Part shown: in pieces, positions 6,169 to 49,706 of the stretch
How positions within the stretch are numbered: the first letter of the stretch is position 1
How the letters are laid out: every line of letters starts with the position of its first letter
NCBI GenBank assembly: GCA_951406725.2
Contig: OX597830.1
Location: 56,916,001 to 56,980,000 of the forward strand
Length of the DNA: 64,000 bases
Origin: Octopus vulgaris
Lineage: Eukaryota
Direction: 5' to 3'
Notes under the pieces: model-generated
Seen by the model: only the letters and a program-made list of their open reading frames with translations
Told to the model about the DNA's origin: nothing
Databases searched by the model: none
Made by a program: the position numbers and the translations under genes

Positions 6169-6169
6169 G

Positions 6170-22155: not shown

Positions 22156-22237
22156 CTTTGCAGTGCTCCAACATCCTACAAAGCTTAATGTACCGAATGC
22201 ATCACAGGGTTTTGATGGTTCCTTATCTAAAGTATTT
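22156..22237 (-). CDS. TRPM-family exon NTLDKEPSKPCDAFGTLSFVGCWSTAK
   Basis: TRPM (P)TDAFG.I.F...AK motif; pyrimidine-rich acceptor tttctcttttgatag, donor gtaatt; 82 nt, phase 2 to 0. Confidence 0.85.
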
Positions 22238-24479
22238 CTATCAAAAGAGAAATAGAAACCAAATCAATAGTTGAAGTGAAGTTGTGATGGGGAAGATAGA
22301 AATTGATTAATAGCAAAATCAAGTGATAAAGATCATCCCCAATGAAAAATACAAAATTTTCACAGATATAGATACATAAATCCCAACACAGAAATAGGTA
22401 AATGTCTTTTAATTTAGTTTAATCAAATAATGATTAATTTTAAGCAATAATAACACCCTTAGTGGCTTGCCATATTGAGATGGCTAGTATATTTTATGAT
22501 TAATTTTAAATAAACTGAAAAGGAATAACAAGAAATATTTTACCATCAGAAGTAAATGTAGAAAATGGGATACATAGTGGAATAATGATTCAGCATCTGG
22601 GATGGTGCTGGTATCATAAGATATCATAAGACCAATTCCAAAAAGGTACTCAACTGACTGGCATGAAGTCACCAATATAAACCAAATTCTTACCCATAGA
22701 TGTGCTGTGTCCTCTCCTTACCTTTTCTATCACTACTACAATACCCTCTGCTCCTCAGAGCTGGTTGCTCTCTTGCCACTTTATCTAGATACCACTGATG
22801 CACACATCTCTTGTGTCCATTAGACTAGAACCCACACTAACACTAATGCCTGTTTTCCTGAAGCATTATGGAGTCTCTGGGTTATTTCCTTCAAAATCAT
22901 TAGTTATATTGATACGCTAACTTTATCTTTTTTTACATACATACCTGTGGCATGTGTCATGCTTATTTTAAAAGAAGAGATAAAAATGTTGAAGGGAGAG
23001 GTAAAAATAAAAAAAAGGTGTTAAGCAGAGGAGGTATAGTTGAAGTGAGTGGGAAAGCAAGAGAGGGGGAGAGACAGAGAGGAAGTGAGAGAGAAAAACA
23101 GAAAGTGAGTGAGACAGTGAGTGTTGCTTTTAAATGTTTATCAGTTTTATCAGAGTAGGACTGCTGCATATATCGAAAGAAAAATAGATACATACGTACA
23201 TGGATACATACACAGATTGTTAAATTAAAAGTGAGAGAGGAGGGACAGAGAGGAAATGAGATAGAGAGAGAGAGAGAGAGTGAGTGAAAGAGACAGTGAG
23301 TGGTAACTGAAAGGAAGGTGGTGTTTGTTTTGTGTTTTTAAATGTTTATCAGTATTTTTAGAGTAGACTGATACATACATCGAAAGAAAAGTAGATACAT
23401 AGATACACAGACACATTGTTAAATCAGAGACAAATAACTACAGAAGATATTGGATGTCACTTTCATGTTTCATTACCACACAAAGATAAAAATTAATGTG
23501 CAAGTGGATGAGTACTCCACAGATTACACTCGATTAACATACTTCTCAGAGATATTCAGCCTCACACAGAATGTGACAAGACTAGCCACTTTCTATTACA
23601 GCTACAACTCATTTTGGCCAGCTGAGTGGACTGGAGCAAGATAAACCTTCAAATGGTTGGAAGAAAATGAAAAAGATCTTATATATGGGTAGGAAAATCT
23701 TTTTAATCATTAGGGTCACAATGGATGTAAATTCGGACCTAACAGTGACATTTGTAGGTCTCACAGATTTGGAGGCCAAGCTCTCATATAAACATTGACG
23801 CACAGGTAATTTTTATCAAACCGAGCAGGCGTCCAGGGGGAAGTCACTACACAAGGAATAGCAATTATTTCGTCTTAGCTTTCACTGCTTATACTGAACA
23901 CATAACATTTTTGCCTTACAATATGGAACATTTCCTGTTCTTTCACTCTTTTAAAAACGGCACTCCATCGGTTATGACAATGAGATTGTTATTTATCTAT
24001 TCAACAGAACTGTCTGCTCATAAAATTAACATGCAAGTGGCTGAGTACTTCAGCTGAGTGGACAGCAGCAAGGTGAAGTAGAGTGCCTTGTCCAAGAACA
24101 CAGCACACCGCTGGGAATCATACTCATGACCTTACAATCGTGGGCCAAATATCCCTAACCACTGAGCCACACATCTTCACTCTCTTAACCACAGAAAAAA
24201 GGAGAGAAAAGATATAGAGACAGGGAAAGGAAAGCTTCAGTCATTTAAAATGGTAATTAGATTGAAATACGATTGATTTTTTCTAGTTTCTTTACTTTTA
24301 ACAACGAAGAAGAGAGAAAAACATTTAGTTATGAATATAGGGAAAGTCTTTCAGGTGTTTAGGTTTTCCTTCTGGGAGTTCTAGAAGGATTGAGTGTTAG
24401 CTCTCTCTTCTTGCTCCAATCCCTGGTATTTATTCACCTTGTTTGATAGTTCTTCATGTCTTTTAGTTGGAGGTGGGGA

Positions 24480-25540
24480 CCATGTATTTTTTAGAGATGT
24501 TTAACGTTTTCTGTATAAACTACAAAGAAGCCACCCCATGTCTTTGGTTGTTTCTTTCTCTTACAAAAATTAATGAAAATTTCTGCATCTTTCTTTACCA
24601 ATAAACCTTGGTTGAAAGTTAAGCATTTAAACATATCTGGTGTTAATTCGTTGATTTTAAATCTCTCACTTTCCTTATAAATGATTCCACTGTATGTAGT
24701 AAAATCTTCGTCCTTTTTTTCTATAATATTCATGCATTGTCAGCATATATTACATAAAGAGTATTTTCCACTGAAAATCTTTGATTCACCGTTTCTTCAG
24801 AACAGATTTCACCCAGTTTCTTTGGTAATATGAAATTGCATTATTTCTCATGCTCGGCTGTTGTCATCTTTCTCAAAACAAGTTGAGTTATTTTTTCGTC
24901 TTGCCAGTTACAGCATTCTTCTCTAAGAACTTCCTCATACCTTCTAAAGTAAGCAGAGAAGGTGGTACCCTCCTCTAGGTTACATGCGAACTCTTAGATT
25001 GAGTTTGTGACAGTGTCAGGGTTGAATGAACTAGATGTATTTTCTGTTTTCTTCTGTATCAGTTGTACTAACAGTTGCTGTTGCTTCTGAAATTCTGTTG
25101 TTATTGTTGCTATTGTAGCTGCTGCCGTAACTGAATTACGGAAGCTAGTAAACCTTCCATGTTCAAACAAATATCAGTCCAGCAAGAGCTTCAAATAATC
25201 CTGTCACCAAAAATGTCATGACATCGGGGTACACATCAAGTGTAAAATGGTACGACTCATTATTAAACAGTTGGTTGTGGTCATCTAAAAATAAGCTATT
25301 GCAGAAATATATGTTAACACAGAATGCACACACACTACTCCAATGTAGGTACGATACTCAGCATTCACTATTCAACTACTGACTGTTAAACAAAACCATG
25401 TCAAATTAACATGGTAAAACAACATGGTTGAACTGACACCGTCAACTACCTGATAGTTCAATAATCAGATCTTATTTATAGTAATCGGTTTGTCCAATTT
25501 TAGTCACTTCGGGGGTGTTCGGGATTCTTCCATAAAAATA
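24480..25540 (-). mobile_element. Gypsy-type LTR retrotransposon 5' relic (LTR, PBS, gag)
   Basis: Minus-strand LTR end CA (~25214) followed by PBS-like TGGTGACAGG; gag-like EDFTTYSGII..ERFKINELTPDMFKCL. Confidence 0.65.
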
Positions 25541-26349
25541 TGTTATAAGAAAATAAGAGGGAAATCTGGCAGAGGTATCATTAGTACGCTGGGCAAAATG
25601 CTAGCAGCATTTTGCTCATCTTTACTTCTTGATTTCTAGTTCAGCTTAGGTTGGCATTTTGAGTTGATAAATTAAGTACCAGTTGAATACTGGGGTTGAT
25701 GTATCTATATACCCCTCCCCTGAAATTGCTGTCCTTGAGTCAACCTTTGAAATCAATATTTTATAAGAAAATATAATAAAGCGATTAAAAAAATATAAGT
25801 ATGTTGTGGTGGTTATCACTCATCCTCCATGAGGAAGTCATTTTAGTTTCAACACACAAAATTAGAACAAATCTCTCATTAAAAAAATAGAATTCGATAT
25901 TCAATGAAAGAATACAAGCTGCCTTTGTGCATCAGTTTTATCTACTATGTAAAGACTTTGAAGAACATCAAGATGAATTCAGTGCCAAAATCACTTGAAA
26001 TTCAAAGAGTCAAAATGTAATACATCAAACTGCTTAAGGCTGTGAAAGCCAAATACACACACACACACACACCCATATATATATATGGGGATATAATTCA
26101 AGCTGTGTTCTCATGAAGCACATCTCTCTCTCTCTCTATCTATCTATCTATTTATCTCTCCTGGTAGTCCATGAATATAATTAGGATCATCATTAGCAGA
26201 TATTATGGATTTCCCATTGAGTTTACAAACCAGTTTAAAGTTTTGTTTAATTTACATCAATCTGTTCCTTATACAATAGAGAAAGGAATCAATATCACAA
26301 AATGTAAATTCTTTCACCAATAAGATGTGTGTGATTGTTAAAATTACTC

Positions 26350-27870: not shown

Positions 27871-28059
27871 TAATGGTATAGCTATCTTAAGAGAGATAAA
27901 TGTAGAGAAACGATAGTTTGCTATATTAAATGCCAATCATTTGCTTTTTGTGAGCCATCTGTTATTTTTCCATCTGTATGCCATTCATAAATAATACTAG
28001 TGATCTAATGGAGTAAGATAAGATTTAGAAGAGTAGCAATTTAGTATGCTATTTAGTAC

Positions 28060-28100
28060 CTCAATTTTATGTCTTCCTGTACCAATTCCTGAACATCATC
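28060..28100 (-). CDS. Micro-exon type A (DDVQELVQEDIKL) of TRPM-like gene
   Basis: Acceptor tttatttgcag, weaker donor gtacta; 41 nt, phase 0 to 2; other two frames contain stops. Confidence 0.6.
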
Positions 28101-29133
28101 CTGCAAATAAAAGAAATGATATTGAATATGAGAAAAAAATGTTGGGGATTCAACTATTCACAATCTTATAGCATCAATTTTTGCCAACGATTATAGAAAA
28201 GGCATATTTCTTTTAAAACGTTTTTAAAACCAACATTCTTAACATCCCTTCTCTAAAACTTCTAATCTTTGGAACTGCAAAAAAAATTTCTATAGAATTT
28301 CTGAATGATCCCCTCAAGAATATAAGGGTGATTCCATGTGACATATTCATACTTTGAAACTGTAAGATCTGAGTTTCCAATGACAAGCCAAATGTATGTC
28401 TATCTCAGTTTGTTAAATTAGGGGTTTTAATTTAGATGGCTATATTTTTTAAGTCACTTTGGTGTATCAGTTAGCATGGCTAAATAATTTACTGGAGAGA
28501 TAGTGTTCTATTCCCATAAATATTCTTAGAACATTTTTTTCTGTCTTCTTGTTTATAAGATATACCATCCCTTGATTGTCTTACAACATCTGGGGAAATT
28601 AGGAACTGGCTCTACTGATATGAAAAATAGTAAGTTAGGCTCCATCTTATCTAAAATAATTTTCCACCACTAATGATATGTAAACTAGCAGCTTACTCAA
28701 CAAATTTCAAAAAAATACTAGTCTGGTTTACCAATATGATATATTGTAGCTCATTCTTCTAATACGAAAAACAGCATCCAATAATTCTAAACTGAAAACT
28801 ACTACACTGGCCATAATAGCATGACATAAAGAAGCCTGCTGTAAATGTATTGTATATAGTTGCTGGATCTACCTGTTGGAAAACTGGTAGATGGCTCCAC
28901 TAGTCTGAAGAATAATAGCTTAGTCTACAGGTATAAAAAATAGTAGCCTGTTGTACCAATATTGGAAAATATATAAATATATTTCAAAACATAATATACA
29001 GCATTCTTTTATAAAAAAAAAAAAAATTATGAAATTCTCAACAAACCATTCGTTATAGTTTATGCAAATAGAACTAATCAAAGAATTATACAAAATTAAA
29101 AATAATTACTTATCTGCTTTTCTGAACACTTAC

Positions 29134-29209
29134 CAATATAGGTATCTTTAGTGGAAAGTTTGGAATACAGTATGAGATAGTTCTTTGAAACGGTAAACTA
29201 TTCGTATTG
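29134..29209 (-). CDS. Micro-exon type B (NTNSLPFQRTISYCIPNFPLKIPIL)
   Basis: Acceptor cttatttacag, donor gtaagt; 76 nt, phase 2 to 0, open frame. Confidence 0.7.
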
Positions 29210-29824
29210 CTGTAAATAAGTAACTGAAATGATTCCTGATTAGTAAAGTGAATTTGACATGAGTGTAGAGTCTAATATTTCAGTCTTTATCATTGAAAAG
29301 AAAGTGAAAAACAGAAGAAAAGTTGCATCGTTGCTTGGAATGGAATCAAGGACATGGAAATGGAAGTAAAATTTAAGGAATTGTGTAGCAGGTGGAAAGT
29401 TATAACCAGAGAGAGTGATTCAGTCAGAGATGAAGGGTGAGAGGGAAAGAAAGAGTAAAGGAGTCTAAGAAATTAAGGCAAAAATTAGAAAGAGGCAATT
29501 TCTCAAAGGAAGTCAAGTAAAAATATACTGAAAATTCTAAGTGACAGAAAGGTGGAGAAACTATTTGTGACAGGGACATGTGACAAAGAAGAGGAATCAT
29601 ACCTTAAAACTAGATCAATTTACAGATATATAAATATTTGCAACAGTACCGTTATAACATGGGTCATTATTAAATAATTATATCAAATAATATCCATATA
29701 TATTTAGTGTTTCTTTGCAATTATGTCAGATGAGGTCTCAGCCATTGAGGATAAGAATCAAAGTGACCAGTTTTATTGTTTCTTTGTGATTCACCAAGAG
29801 CCAAAGAATTCATATGGCTATTAT

Positions 29825-30118
29825 TTCATATATGGGAAGGTGCATAGCTTGGTGGTTGGGCTATTTGCCCCATGGTCATAAGGGCTTCAGTCCAATATCT
29901 GGCAGTGCCTTTGTGCTTGAGCAAGATACTTTATTTCATGTTGCTTCAGTCCATTCAGCTGACAAAAATGAGTTGTCCCTGTATTGCAAAGGGCCAGCCT
30001 TGTCACATTCAGTGTGTCATGCTGACTCTCTGTGAGAACTGCAATAAGGGTATGCATGTCTAAGGAATGCTCAGCCACTTGGATGTTAAATTTCACAACA
30101 GAGTTGATCCATTGATTC
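29825..30118 (+). mobile_element. SINE-like element shared by duplication units (paralog 39030-39350; family fragments 23470-23640, 23960-24180)
   Basis: Shared cttg(a/g)gcaaga(t/c)actttatttc and tcagccacttg blocks at the same unit position. Confidence 0.7.
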
Positions 30119-32775
30119 ATAATTTCTTTATTCCTAACCCATAGTATAGTAATTGTTATCCAGCCATCAATCTTTTACTATTATGCAAATCAGTAATAAC
30201 TAGACACATGCAGTTAACATTTTAACAAATAACAATCAAATATTTGATAAAAAAATATAAAAACTTCAGTATATTAAGTTGTTTGGAAAATGAACAAGTC
30301 ATCAATGCTTCAAATATCAGCCCTTCCTTTTTAAGGTAAAGAAGAGAGAAATTAAGGGAAATACTGTGTGCTATTTCAGAGCATGATGGTAACAGACACA
30401 GGAAGTGTGTAGACAATACATATGGGTTTTAGTAGAAGAAAGAGAAGAACTATTATTATTGTTGTTTTCTGCATAGGTCATCCCTGATTATGCAGTCATA
30501 CAACAGACAAATAGGTTAGCAAACAACAAGGTATGAGCCAGAGATTCATCTTGCCAGTTCTACTATGTCTCCATCTGAGACCTCAGTACACATGCACACT
30601 AAGACATTCAATTATGAAATGTATGGTATGTAGCATAGTGGTCTGGAAATATTGCAACCTCTCTACTCTCTCTCCAGTGAACAATACAAAATCCTGGGGA
30701 GCAAACAGTCTATCAAGCTGCCATGTCTATGTAGTGTACAAGAAAAACACTTTGGGAATATAATTTCCCAAATCGAATCTGTTGGGCATCTCCATCGTGT
30801 TTTCAATCTCTTCCTACACAACCTTTCCTTACCTCCTTAATACACTTAGACAGCTTTATTAGCAGACACATAAATACTCACATCCTCCCAACAAATTACA
30901 GATAGTGCTGCACAAATAATCCAATCCAACATAAATTGCTAAGAAACCTGGTCCCAAAACAAGCTTTTGAGAAACACTTAGGGCTTTTCTGGGTCTGCAA
31001 GTCAGTCTTTGATAGAGTGAAGTAAATGAAGTGAAAACCTTTAACCAGGATCAAATGGTCAGTATTGGAAAGTGGTAGGTCATGGGGTCGAGTCACTAAC
31101 ACATGTAAAATTGAGACAGGTGTGAAGATGATTGGTCAACATGCTAGTGGAGGTTACAGATTTCTCCAATACCAGACTTCATCCATCAACCAAATTTTTT
31201 GTGAATACTGATTGATTTTCGTTTTAGATACACTCATCGACAGCTAGAATTAGCCATTAATTAGTTTTATCCTAATTGTTTCCTTTCTCTTTTCACCCTT
31301 CCCCCGCCACTTCTACACCTGATTAACTGTCCCTTTATAGGTATTATCCCCCACTGGAATTAACTTCTGTTTCTGTAAGTCCTTCCATCATTTGCCATCC
31401 ACCACATGTACATACACACATATTCACACTACTTGAATCTTACACTCACCCTCTCACATATACATACTGTGTAGTGACACACACCCCTGTCACTTTTTAG
31501 TCTTTCCTTATTTCATTTTCACCTATTTTTTCTTATTTCATTTGCACTCACCCTCTCACACATACATACTGTATAGGGACACACTTTTTATTCTTTCCTT
31601 ATTTCTTTTTACCTGAGTTCCACATGTACATCACCAACCCATTTCCACTCTCCTCTTCAAGAACTCACATACCTGCTACCACTTCCTGTATCCATTACTA
31701 TGATGACCATCTGAAATAAAACATGGACAATCCATTTCTCCTTTGCTTAATATTCTCTCTTTTCTCTCTTAATAGAAATAGACTTTTGCTTCAATCTTTG
31801 TTGTCTTTTCCATTTCCTCTTGGTTTTTAATTCACTGTCTTTATCTTATATTTCTCATATTTTTGTATCTTTGAATTATTTTTGTTAAGGAACACAAAGA
31901 CCTGAATTTCTCATAAACTGAATTTCATGCTTTAATTGCAGCTTACCCATAGCATCTTGGGAAGGATATGAAACTGTATTCTGTAGAATTGTTAAGTAAC
32001 AATAAAACTGTTCATTTTGATCTTCATCCCAAACTGCCACAAATCATGGGTTTGGTGTAACCTTTTGAGACTTACTCATATTTAATATTTATAAGAAAAT
32101 ATAATGGAGTGAATATAATAATATATGTTGTGTTTGGCTCTCATTCATCTTCCATGATTAAATCATTTCATATTAAACACACAAACTTTACTCAAATCTC
32201 TTGCCAGAAAATAATAGAATTCCCAAATCAGTAAATCTCTCTCTCTCTCCTTCTCTCCTCTTCTATGCACGAATATAATTAAAATTATAATTATCAGATT
32301 TCCCACTGAGTTCACAAATCAGTTTCAATTTCAGTTTAATTTGCATAAATCTGTTTCTTATATGATAAGAGAAAGAAATCAATATCATAGAATCTAAATT
32401 GTTTCACCAATAATAAAGTGTTTGATTGTTGAAATCATTAATGCTATACTTGTCTTAGAGAAATGATGGATTGCTATATTAAATGCCAACCAAATTTTGA
32501 ATTATTTGAGCATTCTGTTGATTTCTGTCTTTCTGATTTTGTAAATAATGCCAGTGATAGAATTGAGTAAGATTTGGAAGTGTATTTCCAACATATTATG
32601 AGAAAAGACTTATATAGAAATTCGATAGTAAACTGATTTTAAGAGAAGTTTTTGTTTAGCATTTACTGGGATAATCTCAGCTGAGTGAAGTTTTTGAATT
32701 CACTATACACCATAGCTGAAATTCTAACATATATATACATATATATTATCAAATTTTACTAGTTCCTTGCATTAC

Positions 32776-32807
32776 CTCTCTTCTTCTCTGCTGTATTTAA
32801 CAATATT
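32776..32807 (-). CDS. Micro-exon type A (NIVKYSREEE)
   Basis: Acceptor cttttgttttcag, donor gtaatgc; 32 nt, phase 0 to 2. Confidence 0.7.
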
Positions 32808-33758
32808 CTGAAAACAAAAGAAATGATATATATAATAGAACTATGCAACAATGTGTCAGCACAAAAAAATAGGGGTTTAAATGATAATGATGATGTTTGA
32901 TAGTATTTATCATATTAATTGTTTTATACGAAGCACATGTCAACAATTTTATGGGAAGAAAAATACAAAGCTATGATAACTTCTTATTTCTCTTCAAACA
33001 GAAATTGAAACTAAGAATTGAAACTGAAAATTAAAACCAAGTGAATGTCTCTGATCACTTGGTATTTATATTCCAATGTAAGAAGCTTAGGAAGGTCCAA
33101 CTAGTGACTATATCCTTCAAAATCTTTCTTCCTCTGTATATGAAGTCAGTACCATTCAACTTACATATTATACTCTCTAATTATTATTTTTCTTTCTTTG
33201 TCAATAAATAGAAACCAAATCAGACATTGAAGCTAAACACAGTCCTTTAACTCATTGGATGCTATTGAATTGTCAAGGAAAATGGAAGTTACTTAATGAT
33301 GATGATGATGATGTGATGGAGACAAACACCAATATGGTAGACTTGAATAATTGTTGAGATATTTCTCTCCCTCCATGAAACTAATGGTAGTCAGGATAAC
33401 CCAAATGTAAAGAATATTTATCCACCAATATGATGTTGAGAGCACTCATTCACCCTGATTGATACTAATGCATGCAGCATGTATGTATGTATGTAATTGT
33501 TTTAAGAATAAAACAATTAAAAATTAAAACTAAAAATACAAGACATAAATAGAATAAAAATTAAAATTAAGGTATGAGCTGTATTGTTAATGAATATATA
33601 TTCCATTTGAGAATCTAAGGATGTGATTAAGTAATTAAGACGATAAACTCAAAGTTAATTGAAGGTAAATGTAGATAGATACTTAAATGAAAATGTTTAA
33701 ATGTATAGTACCAATGGATAGTATTAATTGTACCAATGTGCAATGATATGGAGACGTA

Positions 33759-34749
33759 TTGGGTCACCCCATAAATAATGCAGTTTTATCAATTGACTGA
33801 ACTAAAAGTCGGAGGTGGGTGGGATAAACTACCTGCATCAACTTGCTATAAAAGCAGGTAGTAATTTTACCTTATACATACATATCTTTAGTGCAAGTTT
33901 TGAAGAGTGTAATTCGCTTTTAACAGTTATTTGTTCAAACCTATAATGGAAGTAACAAAGGAGCATCTTTGGTGTATTTTACTTTATGTGTTCAATAAAG
34001 ACAACAATGCAATGGAAAGTGTGAGGAATATTTATGCAGAGTATGATATGGAGATCAGACAATAAACATAATCCAGAGTCAACAGTGGTTCCAGAAATTC
34101 TGAGGACGTCCTGCAAACCCTAGTAGAATGAAATCACATTATAACTGTTAAGGAACCTGCAGAGAAGCCTGGATTTAGCAGGGAAGCTTGGATTCAACCA
34201 TTCATTGACACCTGTGTGCCATTGGAAAAGTCAGAAAATTGGGTCAATGAGTTCCTCATAAACTTTCCAAATGTTAAACCCAAACCAAATTATAACAAAG
34301 GAGATCTACTATGAGCAACTTGAGTGGCTTATGTTAGTACTAGAAGAAAAACGACCATCTTTGGTTTCTAGATGAAAGGTGTTCTTCCATGAGGATAATT
34401 CTCAGCTACATACAGTGGGGATAGCATTCTGAAAGCTGAACAGTTTGAATGGGAAACGATGTCCCACCCACCATTGCTCCATCTTATTATCATTTATTCC
34501 ACAGTCTTCAAAATCATTTGGACGGAAAAAATATGAATTCTGTAGATGAGGCTGGAAAAGTACTAGAGAAGTATTTTTCATCATGGACAAATGAATTTTG
34601 GAAGAGGGATCTTACAATTCTACTAGTTAGATGGAAGAGCATTGTAGAAAATGAAGGAGAGTATATTTTAGATAAAAAAGAACTTTGTTCATCTTAATTT
34701 TGAAAGATAAAAGAAGTATAAAAACTGCATTATTTATGGGATGACCCAA
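33759..34749 (+). mobile_element. Internally deleted mariner element
   Basis: TIRs ttgggtcaccccataaataatgcagtttt / aaaactgcattatttatgggatgacccaa, flanked by TA; APSYYHLFHSLQNHL, RWKSIVENEGEY. Confidence 0.92.
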
Positions 34750-36314
34750 TACATACACATGTGTGTATGCATGTGTGAATTTGTGTGCATGCATGCATGA
34801 GATCAACGAAATCTGTAAAATGTTTTATTCTTGGAGAAAGAAATAACGTTTTGAATACAATTCAGTTTGATATTTAATTTCATATATATATATATATATA
34901 TATAAATATATATTTTCATGTGTGTGTGGGTGAAACTAAAAATCTAAATTTAATTTACTTTGAAAATTTGCAGTTTTACTTCGATTAAAACACCAACGAG
35001 TCTTTAACTGACATTCCATTGATTGTTTTAGACTTCTCTTCTCAGCGTAACAAAAGACAAAGGAGTCCATAAAATTTTTACAGCATCCACACATCCGAAC
35101 TTCAGATTGTAAAGATAATTTATTCTTCTCCATCAACTCGTTTTCAGTAAAAAGAAGTTCATTGTGAGTAGGACGGAGGTAAGATTAGTTGAAAGCCCCC
35201 CCCCCCTCTACACACACAAATAATTTATTATCAATTTTATTTATTGACAATAACTGTCTACGTAGAAACAAACTTTGCCAACTCCAGAAAGAGCAACTGT
35301 GGAATCACTTGAATTCATGAGTGAATTTATCCTACTCCAACCTGTGCCAATGCCAATGAGATTCAACAAAAACACGTTAGTAGCAACACTAACACTCTCC
35401 GTAATTATAATGTTACTATCAGTCCGAATATGCTTGATGCACAGTTGAACTGGGAAACAGGCTACTAACTGCATTTTGTCATGCAGCACCACCTACCTAG
35501 ACTGTGAGATGCTAGCATTTTGGTGTAGTTATCCCCTCTTTGGTCACAGATACGAGGCAGATGATGCGATGAACTGATACTCTTACACTTTTCCAGTCAC
35601 CATACAGTGACTGGTAGGGCTATACAGCATGTTCAATTATTAACAGTCCCCAAACCATTTTTGCTATTAATACAAATATACCATTGCATTACTGTTATTT
35701 TGCAAACATAAGATGGTATGTTTTTTCCTTTTCAGGATTTCAGTTAGCTACAAACATTTGCTAATTTTAAAATAAAAAAACAAGCCCTATGTAGTGGAGT
35801 TTATCACAGAAAGCACACAAGCACACCTTATTAAATGGATTTTATTATTAATTTCAAAAGGGAAAAGATGTGGTGAATTGTCATGCATGAAATTGTCAGT
35901 GTTGAACTGTCATGTGAAGAATTGTTGGGTGCCATTGAAAATACTAGTTGGTCTAGTACTATAAACAGTATACATCCATACTAAAATAGAAACTATTACA
36001 CTTGTTATAAAACATGAAAGCCTGCTGTAAATATATGAAATATAGTTTTTATATCTACCAATAAGAAATAGCATAGACAGTTCTATCTTGTGGAAAATAG
36101 TAGATTGTTCTACCAGTGTAAAATTAGTAGCCTGTTGTACCAATGTGCGAAAATATATAAAAATATTCATAAACAGAACATACAACATTCCTTTTAGGCA
36201 AATCCATTGATGAAATTCTCAACAAACCATTTGTTACAATCTATGCAAAAAAGAACTCATCTATAAAATATAAAATTTATAAAGAATTACTGTTCTTCTT
36301 TTCTGAGAACTTAC

Positions 36315-36366
36315 CTTATATCCATATTTATATCCTGAATGACCAGATGAGATAATATTCGTAAAT
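36315..36366 (-). CDS. Micro-exon type B (FTNIISSGHSGYKYGYK)
   Basis: Acceptor ctgattttacag, donor gtaagt; 52 nt, phase 2 to 0. Confidence 0.7.
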
Positions 36367-36543
36367 CTGTAAAATCAGTAAATTAGAAAATTCCAGATTG
36401 GTAAAGTGAATCTGACATAAGTCTAGAGTTTCAAATTTCAGTCTTTATCTTTTGACTGGGAGTGAAGAATAGAAGAAAAGTTGTGTTTTGGCATGAAATG
36501 GAAATAGAATGAAAGTTTAAGGAATTATGTGACAGGTAAAAAG

Positions 36544-36575
<32 letters not shown>

Positions 36576-36577
<2 letters not shown>

Positions 36578-36934
36578 TAGCAGTATCGCCCGGCGTTGCT
36601 CGGGTTTGTAAGGGAAATAACTATAAAGCATTTTTAGAGAGTTATAGCCAAAAAATGGGAAAAAAATGATGGTAAATTTTTTTTTTTAGTTAAAAAGGTC
36701 GAGTTGCGTCTGTGGTTTGTGTTTGTGATTCTCGACCCCATGTCGAATTTATCGATTTTTTTCAGAACTGGGGGAACTTTTCAAAATTTTCGCTGCGTTA
36801 GTTTTGAATTATGACATTGGGCTATGTGTGTGTCAAGTTTCATCAGAATCGGTTGAAAGCCGTGGTCAGTGTGAGGGTACAACCTAACAGACACACAGAA
36901 ACACACACAGACAAACTGCCGTTTATATATAGAG

Positions 36935-36935
<1 letters not shown>
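36576..36935 (+). mobile_element. Helentron/DINE-1-like non-autonomous element
   Basis: actagcagtatcgcccggcgttgctcggg start, aagtttcatcagaatcgg core, tttatatatagagat end, set in (TA)n. Confidence 0.65.
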
Positions 36936-36983
<48 letters not shown>

Positions 36984-37199
36984 CTGGGCCAGAGTAGTAT
37001 GGTGAAAAGTAAACAAGGAGTAAAGGAAACTAAAAAAATAAGACAGAAATTAGAAAGAGGAAATTTCTCAAAGAAAGGCAAATAGAAACATGTTGAAAAT
37101 TGTAAGAGAAGCTAAAAAGATGGAGAAATCTCTATGTAACAGAGGCAAGTAACAAAGAATAGGAATCATATGTTAAAAATAGATCTATTCACAGATATA

Positions 37200-38405
37200 T
37201 TAGGTTGTCTCACATGAAATATTGTATTTTAACTGGGTTTCTTATGAGTCATCTATAAATGGATTTTGAATGAGTTTCTATGTACATGCTTGTGTTTACT
37301 CTTACTCTTTTTCTTTCTAGACAATTCTATTATTCAAAATTGCTACCCACAGCTCTTATGACAATGTTGACAACAGAATAATATCAAGTGATATTCTTGT
37401 GTGAATACAAGTTGGGTCACTCTACCACCGAAGCTCTACAAAATATCAAGTGCACTTTTGGTAATGAATCTGTTGACATTAGAACTGTTCAGAAATGGTT
37501 CCAAAGATTTTGTTCAGGAAATGAAAGCATTAAAAATAAATCAAGAGGGAGACTAAAATCTGATATCTGGCATGATGAATTGAATGCTTTGATTAAATGG
37601 AATCTGGGAACAACAGTCCAGAAAATTAGATCAGAGCTCCAGACATCTGCAACTGCTTCTTGACACTTGAAGAAAATTGGAAAAGTAAAAAAGATGGATA
37701 GGTTTGTTCTGTGTTCCATGTTGATTTCTCGGTTGGAAAGAAAACCACTTTTGAATTGACTCATTATGTATGATGAGAAATGGAAACTCTTTGATAATAA
37801 TAGCAGGTGGACAGGACAGTGGTTAGATGCAGGTGAGTCACCAAAACACTACTCAAAACCACCACTGCATCCTAAAAAGTTGGTCACTGTATGGTCAACA
37901 AAGAGGTAGTTCATTTTTCATTTTTGCAACAAAGAGAAACTTTAACAACAACAACCTATTGTCAGGAAATTTTATGCATGGAAAATTAAAAAAGAAGCAA
38001 CCTAAATTAGTGAATAGTGATGGCCCAATTTTGCTTCATGATAATGCATGACCTCACACTTCTCATGCTACAGTCCACAAGTTGCAATGCCTGAATTATG
38101 AAATTTTGGCACATCCTCCTTATTCTTCTGATATCTCTCCTACTGGTTATCACATATTTAAACACTCCAAGCTTGCTATATGCAATAAAACATTCTTAAA
38201 TAAAGAAGAGGTAACTGAAGCATCTCAAAAATTTATCAGTGATAATTTATCAGATGATAAATATATGCCTTAGAGGGAACGTTGGATGAAGGGCATAAAT
38301 TAATAACGATCATATTTTGATTAAATAAATAAATATTCTAAAACTTAAAAAACAAATTTTAATGTTTCCTTTTTCAAATGTGACATTTCATGTGAGACAA
38401 CCTCA
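37200..38405 (+). mobile_element. Degenerate mariner transposon
   Basis: TIRs aggttgtctcacatgaaat / atttcatgtgagacaacct; TA TSD shown by empty paralogous site ~29625; DEKW, LHDNA, HPPYSSDISP. Confidence 0.93.
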
Positions 38406-38479
38406 TATAAATATTTACAACAGTACCAATATAACATGGGTTATTATTAAATAAATATATCAAATAATATCCATATATT

Positions 38480-38893
38480 CTTTTATTCGTTATCTTGTTT
38501 CAATCATCTGCCTGTGGCTATGCTGGAGCACTGCCTTTTAGTCAAGCAAATCACCCCCCCCACTCCAGGACTTGTTCCTTGTAAGCCTAGTACTTATTCT
38601 ATTGGTCTCTTTTTGCTGAACTGCTAAGTTACGGGGACGGAAACACACCAGCATCACATGTCAAGTGATGTTGCTGGGGGTGGGGGGAACAAACACAGAC
38701 ACACACACACATATATATACATATATACGACGAGCTTCTTTCAGTTTCTGTCTACCAAATTCACTCACAAAGCTTTGGTCGGCCCAAGACTATAGTAGAA
38801 GACACTTGCTCATGGTGTCACACAATGGGACTGAACCTGGAACCATGTAGTTGGCAAGCAAGCTACATACCACACAGCCACTCCTGCGCCTAT
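38480..38893. mobile_element. SINE-like element (family also 40715-40830 and in opposite orientation 50130-50515)
   Basis: Absent from the paralogous site at ~29700; shared tttc(t/c)gtctaccaaat(t/c)cactcacaa. Confidence 0.75.
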
Positions 38894-40137
38894 ATATTTA
38901 GTGTTTCTTTGCAATTATGTCAGATGAGGTCTCAGCCATTTAGGATAAGAATCAAAGTGACTAGTTTTACTGTTTTTTTGCAATTCATCAAAATTCATAG
39001 AATCCATTTGGCTATCATCGCATATATGTGAAGATGTGTGGCTTAGTGGTTGGGGTATTTGGCCCACGATCATAAGGTCTTCAGTCTGATATCTAACAGT
39101 GCACTGTGTGCTTGGGCAAGACACTTTATTTCGTGTTGCTTCAGTCAATGCAGCTGGAAAAAATGAGTTGTCCCCGTATTGCAAAAGGCCAGCCTTATGA
39201 CATTCAGTGTGTCATGCTGAATCTCCGTGAGAACTGCAACAAAGGTACGTGTGTCTAAGGAATGCTCAGCCACTTGCAGTGTTAATTTCCTGAGCAAGCT
39301 GATCCATTGATCGGATCAACTGGAACCCAAATCATTGTAACTGACAGGGTACCAATATATATATTACATATATTTATTTATTCCTAACCCATAGTGTAGT
39401 ATCATCTAGTCATCAACCTTTTACTGTTATGCAAATCAGTTATTACTAGATGCAAGTATGTTTACATTTTAACAAATAACAAACATTTGATAAAAAATAT
39501 AATGAAGTCAGTATATTAAGTTAATTTGAAAGGGAATAAATCATCAATGCTTCAAGTATCAGCCCTTCTATTTAGGTAAAGAAGAGAGAAATTAAAGAAA
39601 ATACTGTTATTTCAGGCTAAGATGGTAACAGACACAGGAAGTGGGTTGCTGGTATATATGAATTTTAGTAGAAGGTAGTGGAGAATTATTATTGTTCATA
39701 GTAGAGAAAGAAATCAGTATCACAAAAATCTAACTTCTTTCACCAATAAAAAAACATGTCTGATTTTTAAGATCAATAAATCTATAGCTGTGTTAAGACA
39801 GGTAAGCGTAGAGAAATGATGGATTGTTATCTTAAATGCCAACCAAATTTTGCTTTTCTGACCTCTCTGCTTTATTTTAATTCTACTATTCAAAAATAAT
39901 ACCTGTGTCCTAATGGGATCAGGTCTGAAAGTTGAGCAGTTTATTGCATTTCCGACATGAAAAAATGTTTTAAGGAAATTAACAATCAACTGATCATAAG
40001 AGTAATCTCCGCTGTTCGTTTCTTTTTATTTTCTTTGCATTATCGACATCCCCAAAAGTTTTTTTGTTTAGTATTTACTGGGATAATCTGAGCTAAGCAA
40101 AGTTCTTAAATTCACTATACACCATAGTTGAAATCAT

Positions 40138-40169
<32 letters not shown>

Positions 40170-40210
40170 CTTATTTATTATCAAATATAAGGATATATTT
40201 ATTGCATTAC

Positions 40211-40242
40211 ATTTTTGTGAATAGTTGGTCTATTTCAGGTTC
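40211..40242 (-). CDS. Micro-exon type A (EPEIDQLFTK)
   Basis: Acceptor tctcttattttcag, donor gtaatgc; 32 nt, phase 0 to 2. Confidence 0.7.
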
Positions 40243-40825
40243 CTGAAAATAAGAGAAAGAATAGCAAACGTTAGAAGGAATGATGGAGTTCAAACTTCTG
40301 ACATTAATGAAATAATACATAGATTAAATTTTTACAACAAATTATGCAGAGAAACATAATTAAATACAAAGTGTACATGTTTAAGACATAAATGTAGCCA
40401 AGATTATCTGGTGGAGATAATCCAATAGCTATTAACAGAGATATACGATTTCTTTTTTCCTATTTACAGTTTTTAGTGTGGTACACTGGTTTTGATATGA
40501 GATTTGAATGGATGAAATCGTCTGGATCAAAATAGTTTTCCATGATGATAACAGTATTTTATTTAATCATTTTAAACATTTGTGTAAGACTTGACAGAAA
40601 ATTGCACCTCCAGTCGTGGTAGATATTTTACAATCAATATTTTAAACAACCTCACAGAAAACCAGCCATTCACCTAATCACTAATCAGTCTGGTGGGCAC
40701 ATAAGCCAGATCGACAATTCTTTGTAAGCCTAGTACCTATTCTATTGGTTCTTTTTGCTGAACCGCTAACTTACAGGGACATAAACACACCAACATCGGT
40801 TATGCAATGGTAGGGTACAAACACA

Positions 40826-40880
<55 letters not shown>

Positions 40881-41505
40881 GCATGTATTTATCTACAGAT
40901 TATGATATTCTCTTCTCATTGGATCGTAGGAAAACATTAAGTGATAGGAAAGAGTAATTTTGATATTTCAAATGACCACCACAAACATTCTATGAAGTAA
41001 CATAAAATTATCAAAACAGTTTTCAGAAACTTTGCTTTCAAAGACCTGTATAATGTAAAAACTAGCAACTTATTCAAATATCAAAAATACTAGCCTGGTC
41101 TAACAATATGGTATACAGTAGCTGGTTCTTCTAATATTATAAATAGTATCCAGCCATATTAAAATGGAAACTAATACACTGACCATAATAATATTTAAAA
41201 ACATAGAAGACTGCTGTAAATATATGAAATATAGTTGTTGGATCTACCAATAGGAGATAACGCAAACAGTTCTACTTATTGGAAAATAGTAGTTAGGTCT
41301 TCCCGTCTGAAGAATCATAGCTTGGGCTACCAGTATCAGAAATAGTAGCTTGTACCAAGATGAGAAAATATATAAAAATATTCATAAACAGGATATACAA
41401 AATTCCTTTTATACAAATGCATTGATGAAATTCTCAACAAAAATTTCATCATAATTTATACAAACAGAACTAATTAAGCATACATAAAAGTTTTAAAAGA
41501 CTTAC

Positions 41506-41533
41506 ATTTTCTAGCCATGAATCGTCAGCTGAT
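41506..41533 (-). CDS. Micro-exon type B (SADDSWLEN)
   Basis: Acceptor ttctgattttgcag, donor gtaagt; 28 nt, phase 2 to 0. Confidence 0.7.
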
Positions 41534-41617
41534 CTGCAAAATCAGAAAATGAGAAAATTCCAGATTAGTAAAATGAGCCTGTCGTAATGAGTGAAGCATC
41601 TTATAGTTCAGGCTTTA

Positions 41618-44925: not shown

Positions 44926-45239
44926 GATATACCCGGCCTTACTCGGGATTAAAATAGTTTATTATTGTTTTGCTTGTTTCGGTATTATAACCCGATTTCA
45001 TTTGGGTCTATGCGGGTCACATTTTAAAAGATGAGGAATTTTGTCCCAGAGGCCATGCCTTTCAATTGAGCAAACTCAAAGGTGCCATGCAAACTCACTA
45101 GCACTTTTAACATAGGTGTGCATATTTTCAGCTCAGTCAGACCACATATGCACACATTACATATATATATATACATACGCATTAAATATGTACATATATA
45201 CTCATTATATATACATGTATACACACAACTTTCAATAGG

Positions 45240-48200
45240 AACATGCTCAGCAATGGCAGTATAAATGTACATGGCTTGGGGTCACCTTGGAAACAAGGCT
45301 ACCTGTTAAACGACATCAAGTCACAAAATCTACAGACCAGATTCTATCAGCGAAACCAGACTCCACAGCCTGCGGGCACTCCAGCACATGTTCGGCGAAC
45401 ATTTCAACATTTTTCTCCATGTCTGCCGAGAATGGGCAGAGGTGGCACCACGGTGCTTCTTCAGAAGTGTCTGGACCTCAAAGTAAGAGCAATTTTCCTA
45501 GACCCGGAGGGTAGGCTGGTTGTTTGGATGTCAATGGCAGCAATGGGTGTGCTTTTTGACCGATTACAGTTTATGCACCATTCTTAACAGGCCGGCCAGA
45601 TTTCTTTTGACGTCTAGAGGTTTTCCTGGGTACGTCTCAACCTTTACTTTTACTGAGGGATTGGAACACTACCCTGGACACGCATCTAGACTATGTGGAG
45701 ATGCAAATGCTTCAAAGACCCGCTCAGATGTTTTCAACTGTTTGGGAGGTACCGACTGGACCACCCGAATGTGCCGATGTGGACATGGAACAACCACATT
45801 GGGTCATCCAGATTGTACTTAGAATATTCTGTAGGACAGTGGATAAAGATAGTGTAGGTTGTCCACAATTCCATATAGTCAGCTACACAGACCACAAACT
45901 TGTGACTTGTACACTTGACTTAGTTAAGACATATAGGGAGGGTCCCAGTTACTGGAAGCTGAACATGTCGTTCACAGCACGCCAGGCTTACAGGGACTGG
46001 ATTAGCACATTAGTTAAGAGGGCATTGACTGGTGCCATCATCAACAACAGATGGTGGTATGCCCTAAAGAAAGCAATTAAAGCAAAATCAGTGAGGTACA
46101 ATAAGGCCCTAGCATTAGACTGAAATAGAATAGAGGGAGAGTTAGTTAAGAAAATAGAAGAGGCACTTAGATCTGGCATCACATCCCATGTACTGGCAGT
46201 GAGGTTGGCCCCCGATAAACACTTCAACACCAAACACGAAGGATACATTGTCAGAGCTAGGATGCATGCTTTGAGGAATAAAGGAGTTGGAGCCACCCAA
46301 GAGGCCCAAGTGGCGGAGGTGCAACGAGGCAACAGAGCCACCATTAGGTCACTTACAGATGAAGAGGGGCGTGAATTACTTGAGCCTGAAAAGATGTGTG
46401 AGGCCTTTCAACAACACTTTGCCCGACTGTTCAGGACAACTGGTGGGTCAGAATGCAGAGTGTTCTGTAGTGCCTACCTTCGTGGCCTGCCACGACTCTC
46501 AGCAAGAGAGGCAGAGTGTTGTAAAAGACCCATCACAGCTGCAGATGTATGGGATGTGATGGCAAGCTGCGCGAGAGACAAGTCACCAGGCTTGGATGGT
46601 CTGCCCTATGAACTTTATTGCCATATGCCAGACTTGTTTGGAGGCATCTTGGTAGCTGTCTACTGCAACTGGCAGCAAAACGGGAATATCCCAGTCTTTG
46701 TAAAGCAAGGAGTGGTGATCCAAACAAGGGAAACGTAGATAACTTCAGGTCCATCACTCTGCTCAATGCATATTTGAAAATTTTGGCCAAGAGGTTGGCG
46801 CCTGTCATCAAGAAACTAGTCGACAAGGCACAAACGTGCGCCATGCTGGTATCCATGACAACCTCCATCTTATTTCTTTATTGCCCACAAGGGGCTAAAC
46901 ATAGAGAGGACAAACAAGAGGGGTCAACCTCCATCTGATGCACTACATCATAGACAGGGTAGTTAAGGAACCTGGCATGGGTGGAGTGATGATCAATTTA
47001 GATCAATCAAAAGATTTTGATAGGGTAGACCATCACTACTTGGAGGCTGTCCTCAAAGTGGCTGGTTTCAGTCCCGTCTTCTGTGGTTGGATCGCTGCCT
47101 TATACAGTGGCATCTGCTCGGTATTTCACATAAATGGTCATCTATCCGGATCATTTAACATCATGCGTTTGGTTCATCAAGGTAGCCCTCTCTCATTGTT
47201 GCTGTATATTTTGACTCTTCAGCCACTACCGTGGAAGCTGGTAACGCCGAGGGGCATGCTATGAGAGCTGGGATGTGAGAAGAGCGTGTCTGCATATGTG
47301 GACGACGTCACCATCATAATGTCAAGCCACAAGGACATCGACCTGGTCGGAGAGACACTAAACGCACATGAAGCGGTAATGGGAGCAAAACTTAATCGAG
47401 AAAAGTCAGTGGGCTTGCGGCTCGGCACCTGGAGAAGCAAGCCCATGCCATCCAACAGTGTCTCCATCGTTGGACGCTTGACCAACAGACCGGTTCAATT
47501 TCTCAGGGTCTGATTCAGTCCAGATTTCCAAATGGAGAAGAACTGGGGTGAAATAATGACTAGAGTGGCCTAAAAGGTCGCATACATCACATCCGTCATC
47601 GATTACCATCTGACCATCGTGCCTTGTCCCAACCCTACCATCACCAAACTGGAATGCATACTCTTCCATTTTTTGTGGAAGGGAAGCGTTCCAATGGTTA
47701 GGCAGTCCATTTGCTGTCAACACCCGCTAAATGGAGGCCTAGGCATGAGGTGGTTGATGATGCGCTGAGACTGTGTCATCTCCGGCACTTCATAGACGAT
47801 GGTGAACAGGTGTGGTCGCCGTTTGTGTGGTGTGCTTTCCTGCAGCTCATCTCCTTGGCTGAACTGCAGTTGTGGAATAAACAGAGACCGAGGCTAGGCG
47901 AATGGGACTGCGAGTGTCGCGTTGCTGTCAAGCAACTCTGCCGTCCGGGACCAAACTTGTGTGACTTCATTACAACAAAGGCATTCTATAGAGGATTAGT
48001 GGAGGGAGATGCGATGACATTCTCGGGCAGAATCTGGGCGTTGATGAGGAACACCTGACCTGCCTGTTCAGAACACCTTTCGGGCCGGGACCTATGGACT
48101 ATCACCAAAGATCCCTGGCCTGGCAGTGCTATCGAAAAGCATTACCTGTTCGGGATAAGCTCTACAGGCATGGTTCGAGAGACACTGGACCGACTTGCCC

Positions 48201-48930
48201 GAGATGCAGTCAGAGCGATGAAACCATTCTGCACGCACTCATGCAGTCTTTAACCATTTTGGACCTGTGGGCTTATGCCTAACGGCTGTTTTCATGTGTG
48301 AGACGAGTCCGCCTGTCGGCCGAGTCTATCTTGAAAGCTGCTCCACCATCTTCCCTCAACTTGGAAGGCAAGACAGTCTTCATCATACTGGTGGCCATGG
48401 TGAAAGAAAGTGTGTGGTAGACTCGAGCAAAAGGATTAGAGACAAACACTTACCTCTCTGGCCAATCGCTCATCAACTTTTTCAAGTACCACTTGAAAAG
48501 GAAGGTGAGAATGGAGAGGCAGGTTTTGTCTTGTGAAAGTTTCAAAAAAGGGTGGGTGAACGTAGCAAAGATGGTGCATGTGAGTGACGAAACCACTTTG
48601 AGCATGATCCTGTAATGGATTGAGAGAGAGAGAGAGAGAGCACTTTGCTCTCATGTGTTTATTCCCTCCCTGCCTGAGGATACCGTAGTCTTTTCCATAG
48701 GCTTTTCTTTCCATGGATAAACATAATCTTGCTTTTCAGATTTTTAAAATTCTTCTGTGATACACGATCACTTTTGACCGTCTTTATCCCCCACCCATCC
48801 CTTTTGATCAGAATTTTACATTTTTTTCTCAATTTTTCCCTTTTTCTTTTTCATTTTCAAAAAGAAAAGCTTTACATTTGTATTTGTCCCCTCTCTGTTC
48901 AGCCCTGTGTGGCCAATAAAGAAAGTTATC
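45240..48930 (+). mobile_element. Degenerate L1/Tx1-group LINE ORF2 (APE, RT, zinc knuckle)
   Basis: SINVHGL, YTDHK, YWKLN, KSPGLDGLPYE, NFRSITLLN, LDQSKDFDRVDH, QGSPLS, AYVDDVT, CPRC..ETILH; aataaa ~48915. Confidence 0.92.
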
Positions 48931-49678
48931 TATCTATCTGTCTGTCTTTCTGTCTGTCTGTCTGCTGCTGCCTGCCTGTCTGTATGTATGTCTGTCAGTC
49001 GATCAATCAATCTATCTATTTTCTCTCTCTTTCTCTGACTCTATCTCTCTCTTCCTCCCTCTTTCTCCCTCCATCCTTCTTTCATGTCCTCACTCTCTCT
49101 GCCCTTCTCACACTGTTTATGAATATGATTAAAATCATTATTAGTAGAAGCTATGAATTTCCCACAGAGTTCACAAACCAGTTCTAACTTCTGTTAATTT
49201 GCATAAGTCTTTTCTTCATATAATAGAGAAAGAAATCAATATCACAGAATCTAATTTCTTTCACCAATAAAATTGTGTGTGATTGTTAAAATTGTTAATG
49301 CTATAGCTGTGTTAAGAGAAATAAGTGTAGAGAGATGATGGATATTAAATGCTAACCAAATTTTGGATTTTAAAACATTTTATTAATTTCTTTCTGCTGT
49401 TTGCAAATAGTACCAGTGATCTAATCGGGTAGAATTTGGAAGAGTAGCAATTTAGTATATTTCAAACATATATGAAATGAGGTATATAGAAATCAATAAA
49501 AAAATATTCTTTGTTATCTGCCTTACTTATTGTTTTTTGGGTGCTACTGTCTACTAAAGAAATTTTTGTCTACTAATTACTGGGATAATTGCAGCTTACA
49601 ATACACCATGACTGAAACCCTGCTATATATATATGTACTTATATATTATCGAATTTAGGGACATATATCATGCATTAC

Positions 49679-49706
49679 CTGTCTTCCTCCGAGCTGTCCT
49701 TATCGT
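49679..49706 (-). CDS. Micro-exon type A (..DKDSSEED), 5' part lost in assembly gap
   Basis: Donor gtaatgc at the homologous position of the duplication unit; open frame ending in phase 2; abuts the N run. Confidence 0.6.

What the first reader, a model, noticed from the sequence alone, without database searches (positions are those of the whole stretch)
22156..49706. Tandem array of phase-alternating micro-exon pairs builds a modular N-terminus on a TRPM-like channel
Seen: seven micro-exons, invisible in the ORF track, with canonical GT-AG sites alternate type A (phase 0-2; 41, 32, 32, >=28 nt) and type B (phase 2-0; 76, 52, 28 nt). Spliced in order they give a stop-free frame: ..DKDSSEED-R-SADDSWLEN-EPEIDQLFTK-I-FTNIISSGHSGYKYGYK-NIVKYSREEE-S-NTNSLPFQRTISYCIPNFPLKIPIL-DDVQELVQEDIKL-R-NTLDKEPSKPCDAFG, which joins the SLOG domain. 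Any A can join any downstream B, or the 22156 exon, in frame. Inference: a cassette system able to generate combinatorial N-terminal isoforms of a sensory-type channel; I do not know of such an array in TRPM genes.
Basis: partly seen in the sequence, partly recalled or inferred. Interest (0 to 1): 0.88.

Follow-up and report, generated by a model that had tools for sequence, protein, structure and literature searches.

The report
Octopus TRPM micro-exon linker array
An octopus ion-channel gene carries a chain of tiny, really spliced exons that likely arose by repeated copying of one exon pair and likely forms a spacer between repeated ligand-sensing domains; the RNA examined keeps all of these exons rather than shuffling them.

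Summary
The seven micro-exons are real: minus strand, with the stated sizes, phases and AG/GT sites. Spliced RNA contigs from 6 runs join them consecutively, and RefSeq models of two other Octopus species carry the same chain. No skipping joint was seen, so the combinatorial reading is possible (13 in-frame paths) but unshown for this array.

The alternation likely comes from tandem duplication of the TRPM-beta exon pair (phase 0-2 plus 2-0) that encodes the Cys-rich segment in the ordinary paralogue; flanking introns are homologous. It is probably not the N-terminus. The window's first exon is cut by an assembly gap. A gap-free paralogue shows 11 micro-exons between the third and fourth of four tandem SLOG (MHR1/2) modules ahead of one pore. 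Contig C17 has about 24 SLOG modules but 8 pore loci.

One O. sinensis RefSeq gene has a pair-skipping isoform in a paralogous array, and isoforms with different SLOG modules on one pore. Reads carry paralogue-type bases, so expression of this exact copy is not shown. Verdict: an undescribed multi-SLOG TRPM variant with a mostly constitutive micro-exon linker.

The parts
49707..49806 (.). Assembly gap (100 N) that cuts the first micro-exon; no array or TRPM sequence found in the 74 kb beyond it
49679..49706 (-). Micro-exon A2 (phase 0-2), 28 nt visible, 32 nt in paralogues
   Evidence: direct RNA joint not seen
41506..41533 (-). Micro-exon B2 (phase 2-0), 28 nt
40211..40242 (-). Micro-exon A3 (0-2), 32 nt
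   Evidence: joint 36366->40211 in 4 of 4 runs
36315..36366 (-). Micro-exon B3 (2-0), 52 nt; a second in-frame GT lies 24 nt downstream
   Evidence: joints on both sides in 4 of 4 runs
32776..32807 (-). Micro-exon A4 (0-2), 32 nt
   Evidence: joint 32807->36315 in 4 of 4 runs; loose end upstream of B4 in 4 of 4 runs
29134..29209 (-). Micro-exon B4 (2-0), 76 nt
   Evidence: joint to A5 in 4 of 4 runs
28060..28100 (-). Micro-exon A5 (0-2), 41 nt; closest to the ancestral A exon
   Evidence: joints (3 of 4 runs; 4 of 4)
22156..22237 (-). Exon X (2-0), 82 nt, first exon of the SLOG/MHR1 module (DAFG motif); shares its downstream intron with the B exons
8821..8998 (-). SLOG exon 2
3137..3280 (-). 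SLOG exon 3 (approximate ends)
549..722 (-). SLOG exon 4 (approximate ends); the rest of the gene, with MHR3, MHR4 and the pore, lies up to 130 kb beyond the window start
28682..41505 (.). Homologous intron flanks of the repeated units (e.g. 28682-29109 vs 41059-41505, 71%; 28758-29404 vs 35952-36548, 70%; 32649-32746 vs 40061-40158, 89%)

Best explanation
The seven exons are spliced in order into an Octopus TRPM-beta channel mRNA, and they likely arose by tandem duplication of one ancestral exon pair and likely form a mostly constitutive, acidic spacer between repeated SLOG (MHR1/2) modules. Shown: exons, phases, consecutive RNA joints, homologous flanks, the paralogue's layout. Inferred steps: in the ordinary octopus TRPM-beta gene a 0-2 exon and a 2-0 exon encode the Cys-rich segment and the DAFG strand; in an Octopus-only clade the Cys-rich content was lost and the pair, a frame-neutral 0-0 unit, was copied head to tail, so A and B must alternate; the coding letters diverged fast while lengths stayed in frame. 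The whole N-terminal module (A, X, SLOG, start of MHR3) is also a 0-0 unit and was copied up to four times ahead of one pore. The array would tether upstream modules to the pore-proximal one, whose ADP-ribose pocket is altered, so ligand sensing would be shifted or handed to other modules. Pair skipping is allowed and would only tune linker length.
For: RNA: E8-E7 in 3 of 4, E5-E4 and E4-E3 in 4 of 4 runs; E7-E6, E6-E5 and E7-E8 in 4 of 4 runs, 6 of 6 contigs confined to exons, no skip. Flank homology: downstream intron B vs X median z 5.4, 63% of 84 pairs z>4, controls 1-2%; ancestral A upstream flank vs A exons z>=6.3 in 8 of 10, control maximum 4.8; ancestral pair 77 nt (0-2) + 145 nt (2-0) at C17 44.33 Mb. 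Layout: four modules then one tail at C17 79.26-79.62 Mb; modules 1-2 joined by a single A; modules 3-4 by 6 A + 5 B. RefSeq XP_036366207.1 has three SLOG domains then the array; XP_052830018-20 join the module-3 tail to the array. Array 70-75% identical between O. vulgaris and O. bimaculoides, like MHR3 (72%) and below SLOG (84.5%). Modules form an Octopus-only clade, 100/99. Y295 and R358 equivalents are S and Q in module 4.
Against: The upstream intron of B and X is not detectably homologous (median z 0.1) and B coding letters no longer resemble X; the ancestral X flanks match neither B nor X. The module-3-to-array joint was not seen in RNA here; it rests on RefSeq models whose support I could not inspect. 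The 79 Mb copy has frameshifts in module 1 exon 3 and module 2 exon 5, and the 67.67 Mb copy has a 53-nt B3: errors or decay. Contigs drop rare variants, tissues are unknown, 261 of 276 joints were hidden, and two contigs branch upstream of B2. The fold was uninformative (mean pLDDT 33), so 'spacer' rests on composition (35 D/E of 139 residues). Reads carry paralogue-type bases, so this copy's own expression is unshown.
Confidence: 0.62

Rival explanations
1. A regulated combinatorial system: tissues or cells skip A-B pairs, and splice different SLOG modules onto one pore, to make many channel isoforms.
For: All skips are in frame: 13 paths from the window's first exon, 89 in the 11-exon copy. 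O. sinensis XP_036366253.1 (X4) lacks 70 aa between the first B and last A of a module-1-type array. In the same gene X1-X4 carry a module-1-type SLOG and X5 a module-4-type SLOG on the same tail. Contigs of X15 and X7 both stop two letters upstream of B2, a branch. Two predicted O. vulgaris proteins join B2 to A5 or A4. Exons diverge faster between units than their flanks.
Against: No skipping joint in 6 runs of 6 studies; 0 of 4 O. bimaculoides isoforms skip a pair; the branch is equally explained by paralogous A2 variants ending in different letters; the two O. vulgaris models are 'hypothetical predicted' and one misreads an A exon frame; module swaps in RefSeq could be reads of chimeric paralogues mapped to one locus.
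Confidence: 0.2
2. The array is the true 5' coding end of a single-SLOG channel, and the upstream modules are separate, truncated SLOG-only genes or decaying duplicates that annotation fused.
For: Single-SLOG paralogues at 42.9 and 43.0 Mb do start with such arrays; about 24 SLOG modules face 8 pore loci; frameshifts in the 79 Mb modules; one O. bimaculoides isoform (X4) starts at B3.
Against: RefSeq models in two species join the phase-0 end of module 3 to A0, and module to module through a single A; no start codon exon was found in the array; module ends and A starts are phase-matched at all three boundaries examined.
Confidence: 0.13
3. The window's copy is an uncollapsed haplotype or a silent duplicate; the feature is real only in its paralogues.
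For: Gaps border this copy and two others inside or next to the array; near-copies at 94-98% identity; best run holds 0.56 of the exon's words and reads show paralogue-type bases.
Against: Its reading frame shows no break in the exons matched from the array to the C-terminus; its pore region is nearly identical to a distinct O. sinensis gene (98.8-100% over two exons). This rival does not touch the architecture itself.
Confidence: 0.3

Closest known systems
TRPM-beta channels (TRPM2/4/5/8 clade; Morini et al. 2026, PMC13143021)
   Same: SLOG/MHR1-2, MHR3, MHR4, six-helix pore, C-terminal coiled coil; the array-bearing O. bimaculoides protein XP_052830018 is listed there as TRPM-beta (Table S1).
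   Different: Cys-rich segment replaced by a micro-exon array; two to four tandem SLOG modules; no NUDT9H; ADP-ribose pocket altered in the pore-proximal module. The passages I read describe one melastatin region per channel and do not mention this.
Schistosome micro-exon genes (MEGs; PMC4350168, passages)
   Same: Runs of very short exons in long introns, in-frame skipping possible, fast coding divergence.
   Different: MEG exons are individually symmetrical, make up most of a secreted protein and yield pools of variants; here only pairs are symmetrical, the array is about a tenth of a channel, and variants were not seen.
Symmetric-module exon duplication in disordered regions (PMC3632108, search listing and abstract start only)
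   Same: A 0-0 unit is duplicated without frameshift and encodes low-complexity sequence.
   Different: Here the unit is a two-exon 0-2/2-0 pair nested inside a larger 0-0 domain module.
Dscam1 exon clusters and clustered protocadherins (recalled, no call)
   Same: Tandem variable modules ahead of one constant part.
   Different: Those use one variant at a time; the micro-exons here are included together. Only the SLOG modules might behave so, and that is unshown.

Membership tests
TRPM | SLOG/MHR1-2 domain (PF18139) | tested here: met
TRPM | MHR3 and MHR4 followed by the ion-channel domain | tested here: met
   exons in order on the same strand downstream of the window; PF25508 and PF00520 in close relatives
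TRPM | Placement in the TRPM-beta clade rather than TRPS | tested here: met
   SLOG tree nests the modules with cephalopod and mollusc TRPM2-like proteins, but no TRPS or TRPM-alpha row was in it; published assignment of the orthologue
TRPM | N-terminal Cys-rich segment (usual, not universal) | tested here: not met
   present in the ordinary octopus paralogue, absent here; other losses are known
TRPM | One melastatin region per subunit | tested here: inconclusive
   relatives annotated with 2-3 SLOG domains; this copy's 5' part is lost in a gap
TRPM2 (ADP-ribose gated) | C-terminal NUDT9H domain | tested here: not met
   gene ends after the coiled coil; no PF25969 in P0001 or P0015
TRPM2 (ADP-ribose gated) | MHR1/2 pocket residues Y295, R302, R358 | tested here: not met
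   S, R, Q in module 4 (residues from PMC6759353)
TRPM | Cation channel activity, gating stimulus | not testable with these tools
   needs expression and recording
Schistosome-type micro-exon gene | Individually symmetrical micro-exons | tested here: not met
   lengths are 1 or 2 modulo 3
Schistosome-type micro-exon gene | Pool of skipping variants | tested here: inconclusive
   none in contigs of 6 runs, which drop rare forms; one RefSeq skip in a paralogous array
Dscam-type mutually exclusive cluster (recalled) | One copy used per transcript | tested here: not met
   consecutive A and B copies are included together; not tested for whole SLOG modules
Neural microexon programme (recalled: 3-27 nt, frame-preserving, neuron-specific) | Size and symmetry | tested here: not met
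   28-76 nt, none a multiple of three; tissue specificity not testable

The most novel reading that the evidence does not exclude
Octopus has built a combinatorial TRPM sensor: one locus splices different SLOG ligand-binding modules (with diverged ADP-ribose pockets) and different numbers of micro-exon pairs onto one pore, a protocadherin- or Dscam-like diversifier for an ion channel.
Probability: 0.2. Interest if true: 0.85.

Novelty: new variant of a known kind. Interest (0 to 1): 0.55.

Why it matters
TRPM channels are described with one melastatin region. An Octopus-only clade with up to four tandem SLOG modules, diverged ligand pockets and a Cys-rich segment turned into a micro-exon linker is a new channel architecture, hidden because annotation splits or misreads these exons; a 2026 cephalopod TRP survey lists one beta-TRPM for O. 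vulgaris (PMC13402157, Table 1 passage) where C17 has 8 pore loci. It also shows step by step how a 0-2/2-0 exon pair becomes a micro-exon array. If modules or pairs are spliced alternatively, it would be a rare case of receptor-type diversification in a channel. If not, it is a linker expansion of moderate interest.

Tried and rejected
Splice-motif scan as proof: no better than the opposite strand. Structure prediction of the O. bimaculoides orthologue on 7 sequences: pLDDT 33, no verdict; no fold search run. PDB search with one short paralogue exon failed twice on my coordinates and was dropped; the same point came. B and X upstream-intron homology, and ancestral X flanks: not detected. One 68 Mb exon was off by one base; those two comparison rows are void. 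Array relatives outside Octopus: none among 1.84 billion representatives (6 hits: 5 Octopus, 1 Biomphalaria repeat protein judged chance) and 2 of 454 candidates, both Octopus; Sepia proteins found have the ordinary Cys-rich start. No run is on record as RNA; the laid contigs are taken as RNA because they are spliced and cover no intron. 6 of 24 listed runs were laid. Sequence beyond the gap: no TRPM or array hit in 74 kb. Literature: searches found no description of this array or of multi-SLOG TRPMs; the library lacks most subscription papers. Earlier scan findings: none.
Full report
Setting. The window is G000:C17:56,916,001-56,980,000 of a 2.80 Gb genome. Named protein records on a contig of the same length as C17 are Octopus vulgaris. 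The gene lies on the minus strand; three SLOG exons are in the window and MHR3, MHR4, the pore and the last exon follow within 130 kb.

The observation. All eight exons were found with the stated lengths, splice dinucleotides and phases, and their ordered join is open. The first is cut by a 100-N gap; in paralogues it is 32 nt. Nothing of the gene was found in 74 kb beyond the gap. Motifs alone are not above chance (6 candidates against 5 on the other strand), so the case rests on other evidence.

RNA. Twenty of 24 listed runs, from 7 studies, hold part of SLOG exon 2, at most 0.56 of its 16 words; none is on record as RNA. Four runs laid on 22050-41700 gave exact CT..AC joints at 22237-28060 (3 of 4), 32807-36315 (4 of 4) and 36366-40211 (4 of 4); 15 of 276 joints were shown and none of these was an exon skip. 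Four runs (two new) laid on 28000-29260, with nothing cut from the tables, gave 6 contigs, all confined to the two exons: the joint between them in 4 of 4 runs, exon 32776-32807 upstream in 4 of 4, exon 22156-22237 downstream in 4 of 4, no other partner. In X15 and X7 the upstream part is 144 letters, the exact sum of the next four exons plus two; both stop there, which marks a branch before exon 41506-41533. Paralogous versions of the preceding A exon differ at that point, so the branch may be paralogues or a skip. X17 runs 207 letters upstream without that stop. The joints 40242-41506 and 41533-49679 were thus not read directly. The contigs carry paralogue-type bases in two exons, so transcription of the window's own copy is not shown. 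Contigs lose rare forms and tissues are unknown.

Annotation elsewhere. CAI9735657.1 (O. vulgaris, 79 Mb paralogue) and O. bimaculoides XP_052830018-21 contain the chain; 0 of the 4 isoforms skip a pair. X2 lacks 13 residues between A0 and B0, X3 differs in MHR3, X4 starts at B3. O. sinensis XP_036366207.1 has three SLOG domains, then the first seven array exons. The array is 70-75% identical between the two species compared, against 84.5% for SLOG and 72% for MHR3. It was found only in Octopus.

Origin. Intron flanks of the units are 70-89% alike. Profiles of the flanks find A and B units before SLOG modules in every region fetched. The intron after the B exons is homologous to the intron after the 22156-type exon X (median z 5.4; 63% of 84 pairs above z 4; controls 1-2%), the intron before them is not (median 0.1). 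The ordinary TRPM-beta gene at C17 44.33 Mb has one 77-nt 0-2 exon and one 145-nt 2-0 exon that encode the Cys-rich segment and the DAFG strand; its A flank matches 8 of 10 A exons at z 6.3 or more (one control reached 4.8), the 3' part of its second exon matches X, and that exon's flanks match nothing. So A descends from the first exon, X from the second, and B likely from X. The pair is frame-neutral, which forces the alternation without any need for a splicing purpose. All 19 B and X exons tabulated are 1 modulo 3 and all 10 A are 2 modulo 3 despite many length changes; I chose some paralogue borders by phase fit, so this is partly circular outside the window. Between units the exons are less alike than their flanks (B: exon 0.26-0.58, flanks 0.58-0.86; A, ungapped means 0.50 against 0.60 and 0.64), which fits fast divergence after duplication, though splice signals also hold flanks.

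The larger structure. C17 has about 24 hits to the middle SLOG exon (my count of the listed rows) but 8 pore loci. The gap-free copy at 79.26-79.69 Mb has four modules (A, X, SLOG exons, start of MHR3 ending in phase 0) and one tail. Modules 1 and 2 are linked by a single A; modules 3 and 4 by 6 A and 5 B, of which the window holds the last seven. The array is therefore likely an internal linker of 139 residues with 35 acidic ones. That copy has frameshifts in two module exons and one B without an A before module 3, so a four-module protein is inferred, not shown. Near-copies of the window's region at 94-98% lie at 67.67, 68.07 and 79.37 Mb, with a partial one at 67.78 Mb; three end at gaps; haplotypes and true duplicates cannot be told apart here. 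In a tree of 28 SLOG domains the 11 array-associated ones form an Octopus-only clade (100/99) beside the ordinary Octopus and Sepia gene (midpoint root, no TRPS or alpha rows). By the alignment to human TRPM2, module 4 has S and Q at Y295 and R358 and keeps R302 (residues from passages of PMC6759353); modules differ from each other there. NUDT9H is absent.

Evidence for combinatorial use. Thirteen in-frame paths exist in the window and 89 in the 11-exon copy. The O. sinensis gene whose tail is closest to this copy has an isoform (XP_036366253.1) that lacks 70 residues between the first B and last A of a module-1-type array, and isoforms with either a module-1-type or a module-4-type SLOG on one tail. 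I could not see the reads behind these models or that genome; mis-mapped chimeric paralogues could give the same. Two predicted O. vulgaris proteins also skip pairs but are weak models.

Literature. PMC13143021: abstract, passages, section 28 and Table S1 rows read; it classes the orthologue as TRPM-beta and does not mention the array in what I read. PMC13402157 and 10.1101/2024.05.23.594666: passages; local TRPM expansions are known in bivalves and vent gastropods, octopus is reported as poor in them; the preprint's supplements are closed and might list these loci. PMC4350168: passages on MEGs. Searches found no account of this array or of multi-SLOG TRPMs. Dscam, protocadherins and the neural microexon programme are recalled.

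Verdict. Observation confirmed; interpretation partly supported. Best reading (0.62): a duplication-built, mostly constitutive linker in an undescribed multi-SLOG TRPM-beta clade of Octopus. Combinatorial use 0.2; separate truncated genes 0.13. Novelty: new variant of a known kind. Interest 0.55; 0.85 if module and pair shuffling is shown.

Noticed in passing
G000:C17:42.9-44.7, 56.8-57.0, 67.3-69.5, 79.2-80.0 Mb (L001-L120 in part): Large TRPM-beta expansion: about 24 SLOG modules against 8 pore loci, in segmentally duplicated blocks with gaps and inversions.
   Followed up: partly
O. sinensis proteins P0134-P0137 vs P0135: RefSeq isoforms of one gene carry different SLOG modules (module-1 type vs module-4 type) on the same pore-bearing tail; P0008 also switches from module-2-type to module-3-type sequence inside one domain.
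   Followed up: partly
window 36291-36315 and 29110-29134 (-): Exons B3 and B4 use a donor 24 nt upstream of the position used by other B exons; the older GT would add 8 residues in frame after B3 but ends in a stop after B4.
   Followed up: partly
L109, L080 (C17 43.013-43.030 Mb) and L077-L078 (42.91-42.93 Mb): Single-SLOG paralogues have their own, differently diverged micro-exon arrays in place of the Cys-rich segment, one rich in Pro and Ser.
   Followed up: partly
L085 (C17 67.677 Mb), L031 (79.606 Mb), L023 (79.522 Mb): One-base length changes in coding exons of paralogous copies: assembly errors or decay.
   Followed up: no
window 63198-63554 (+): PAN/apple domain exon (PF00024, E 1.4e-6) of an unrelated gene beyond the gap.
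   Followed up: no
window 11245-12786 (+), 19900-20800, 26360-27350, 45600-48600 (+), 55000-56300 (+), 5500-8300 (+): Fragments that read like non-LTR retrotransposons (judged by eye, no family search), one with a 513-residue open frame.
   Followed up: no
window 12900-15250 and 15400-16860: Tandem repeats and a roughly 1.4 kb inverted repeat in the intron between exon X and SLOG exon 2, seen in the ORF list; absent from the 79 Mb paralogue's intron.
   Followed up: no
L042:4110-4262 (-): The penultimate coding exon has an internal repeat of the coiled-coil unit and no obvious donor at its end; an earlier GT or a stop in read-through would both give a C-terminus.
   Followed up: partly
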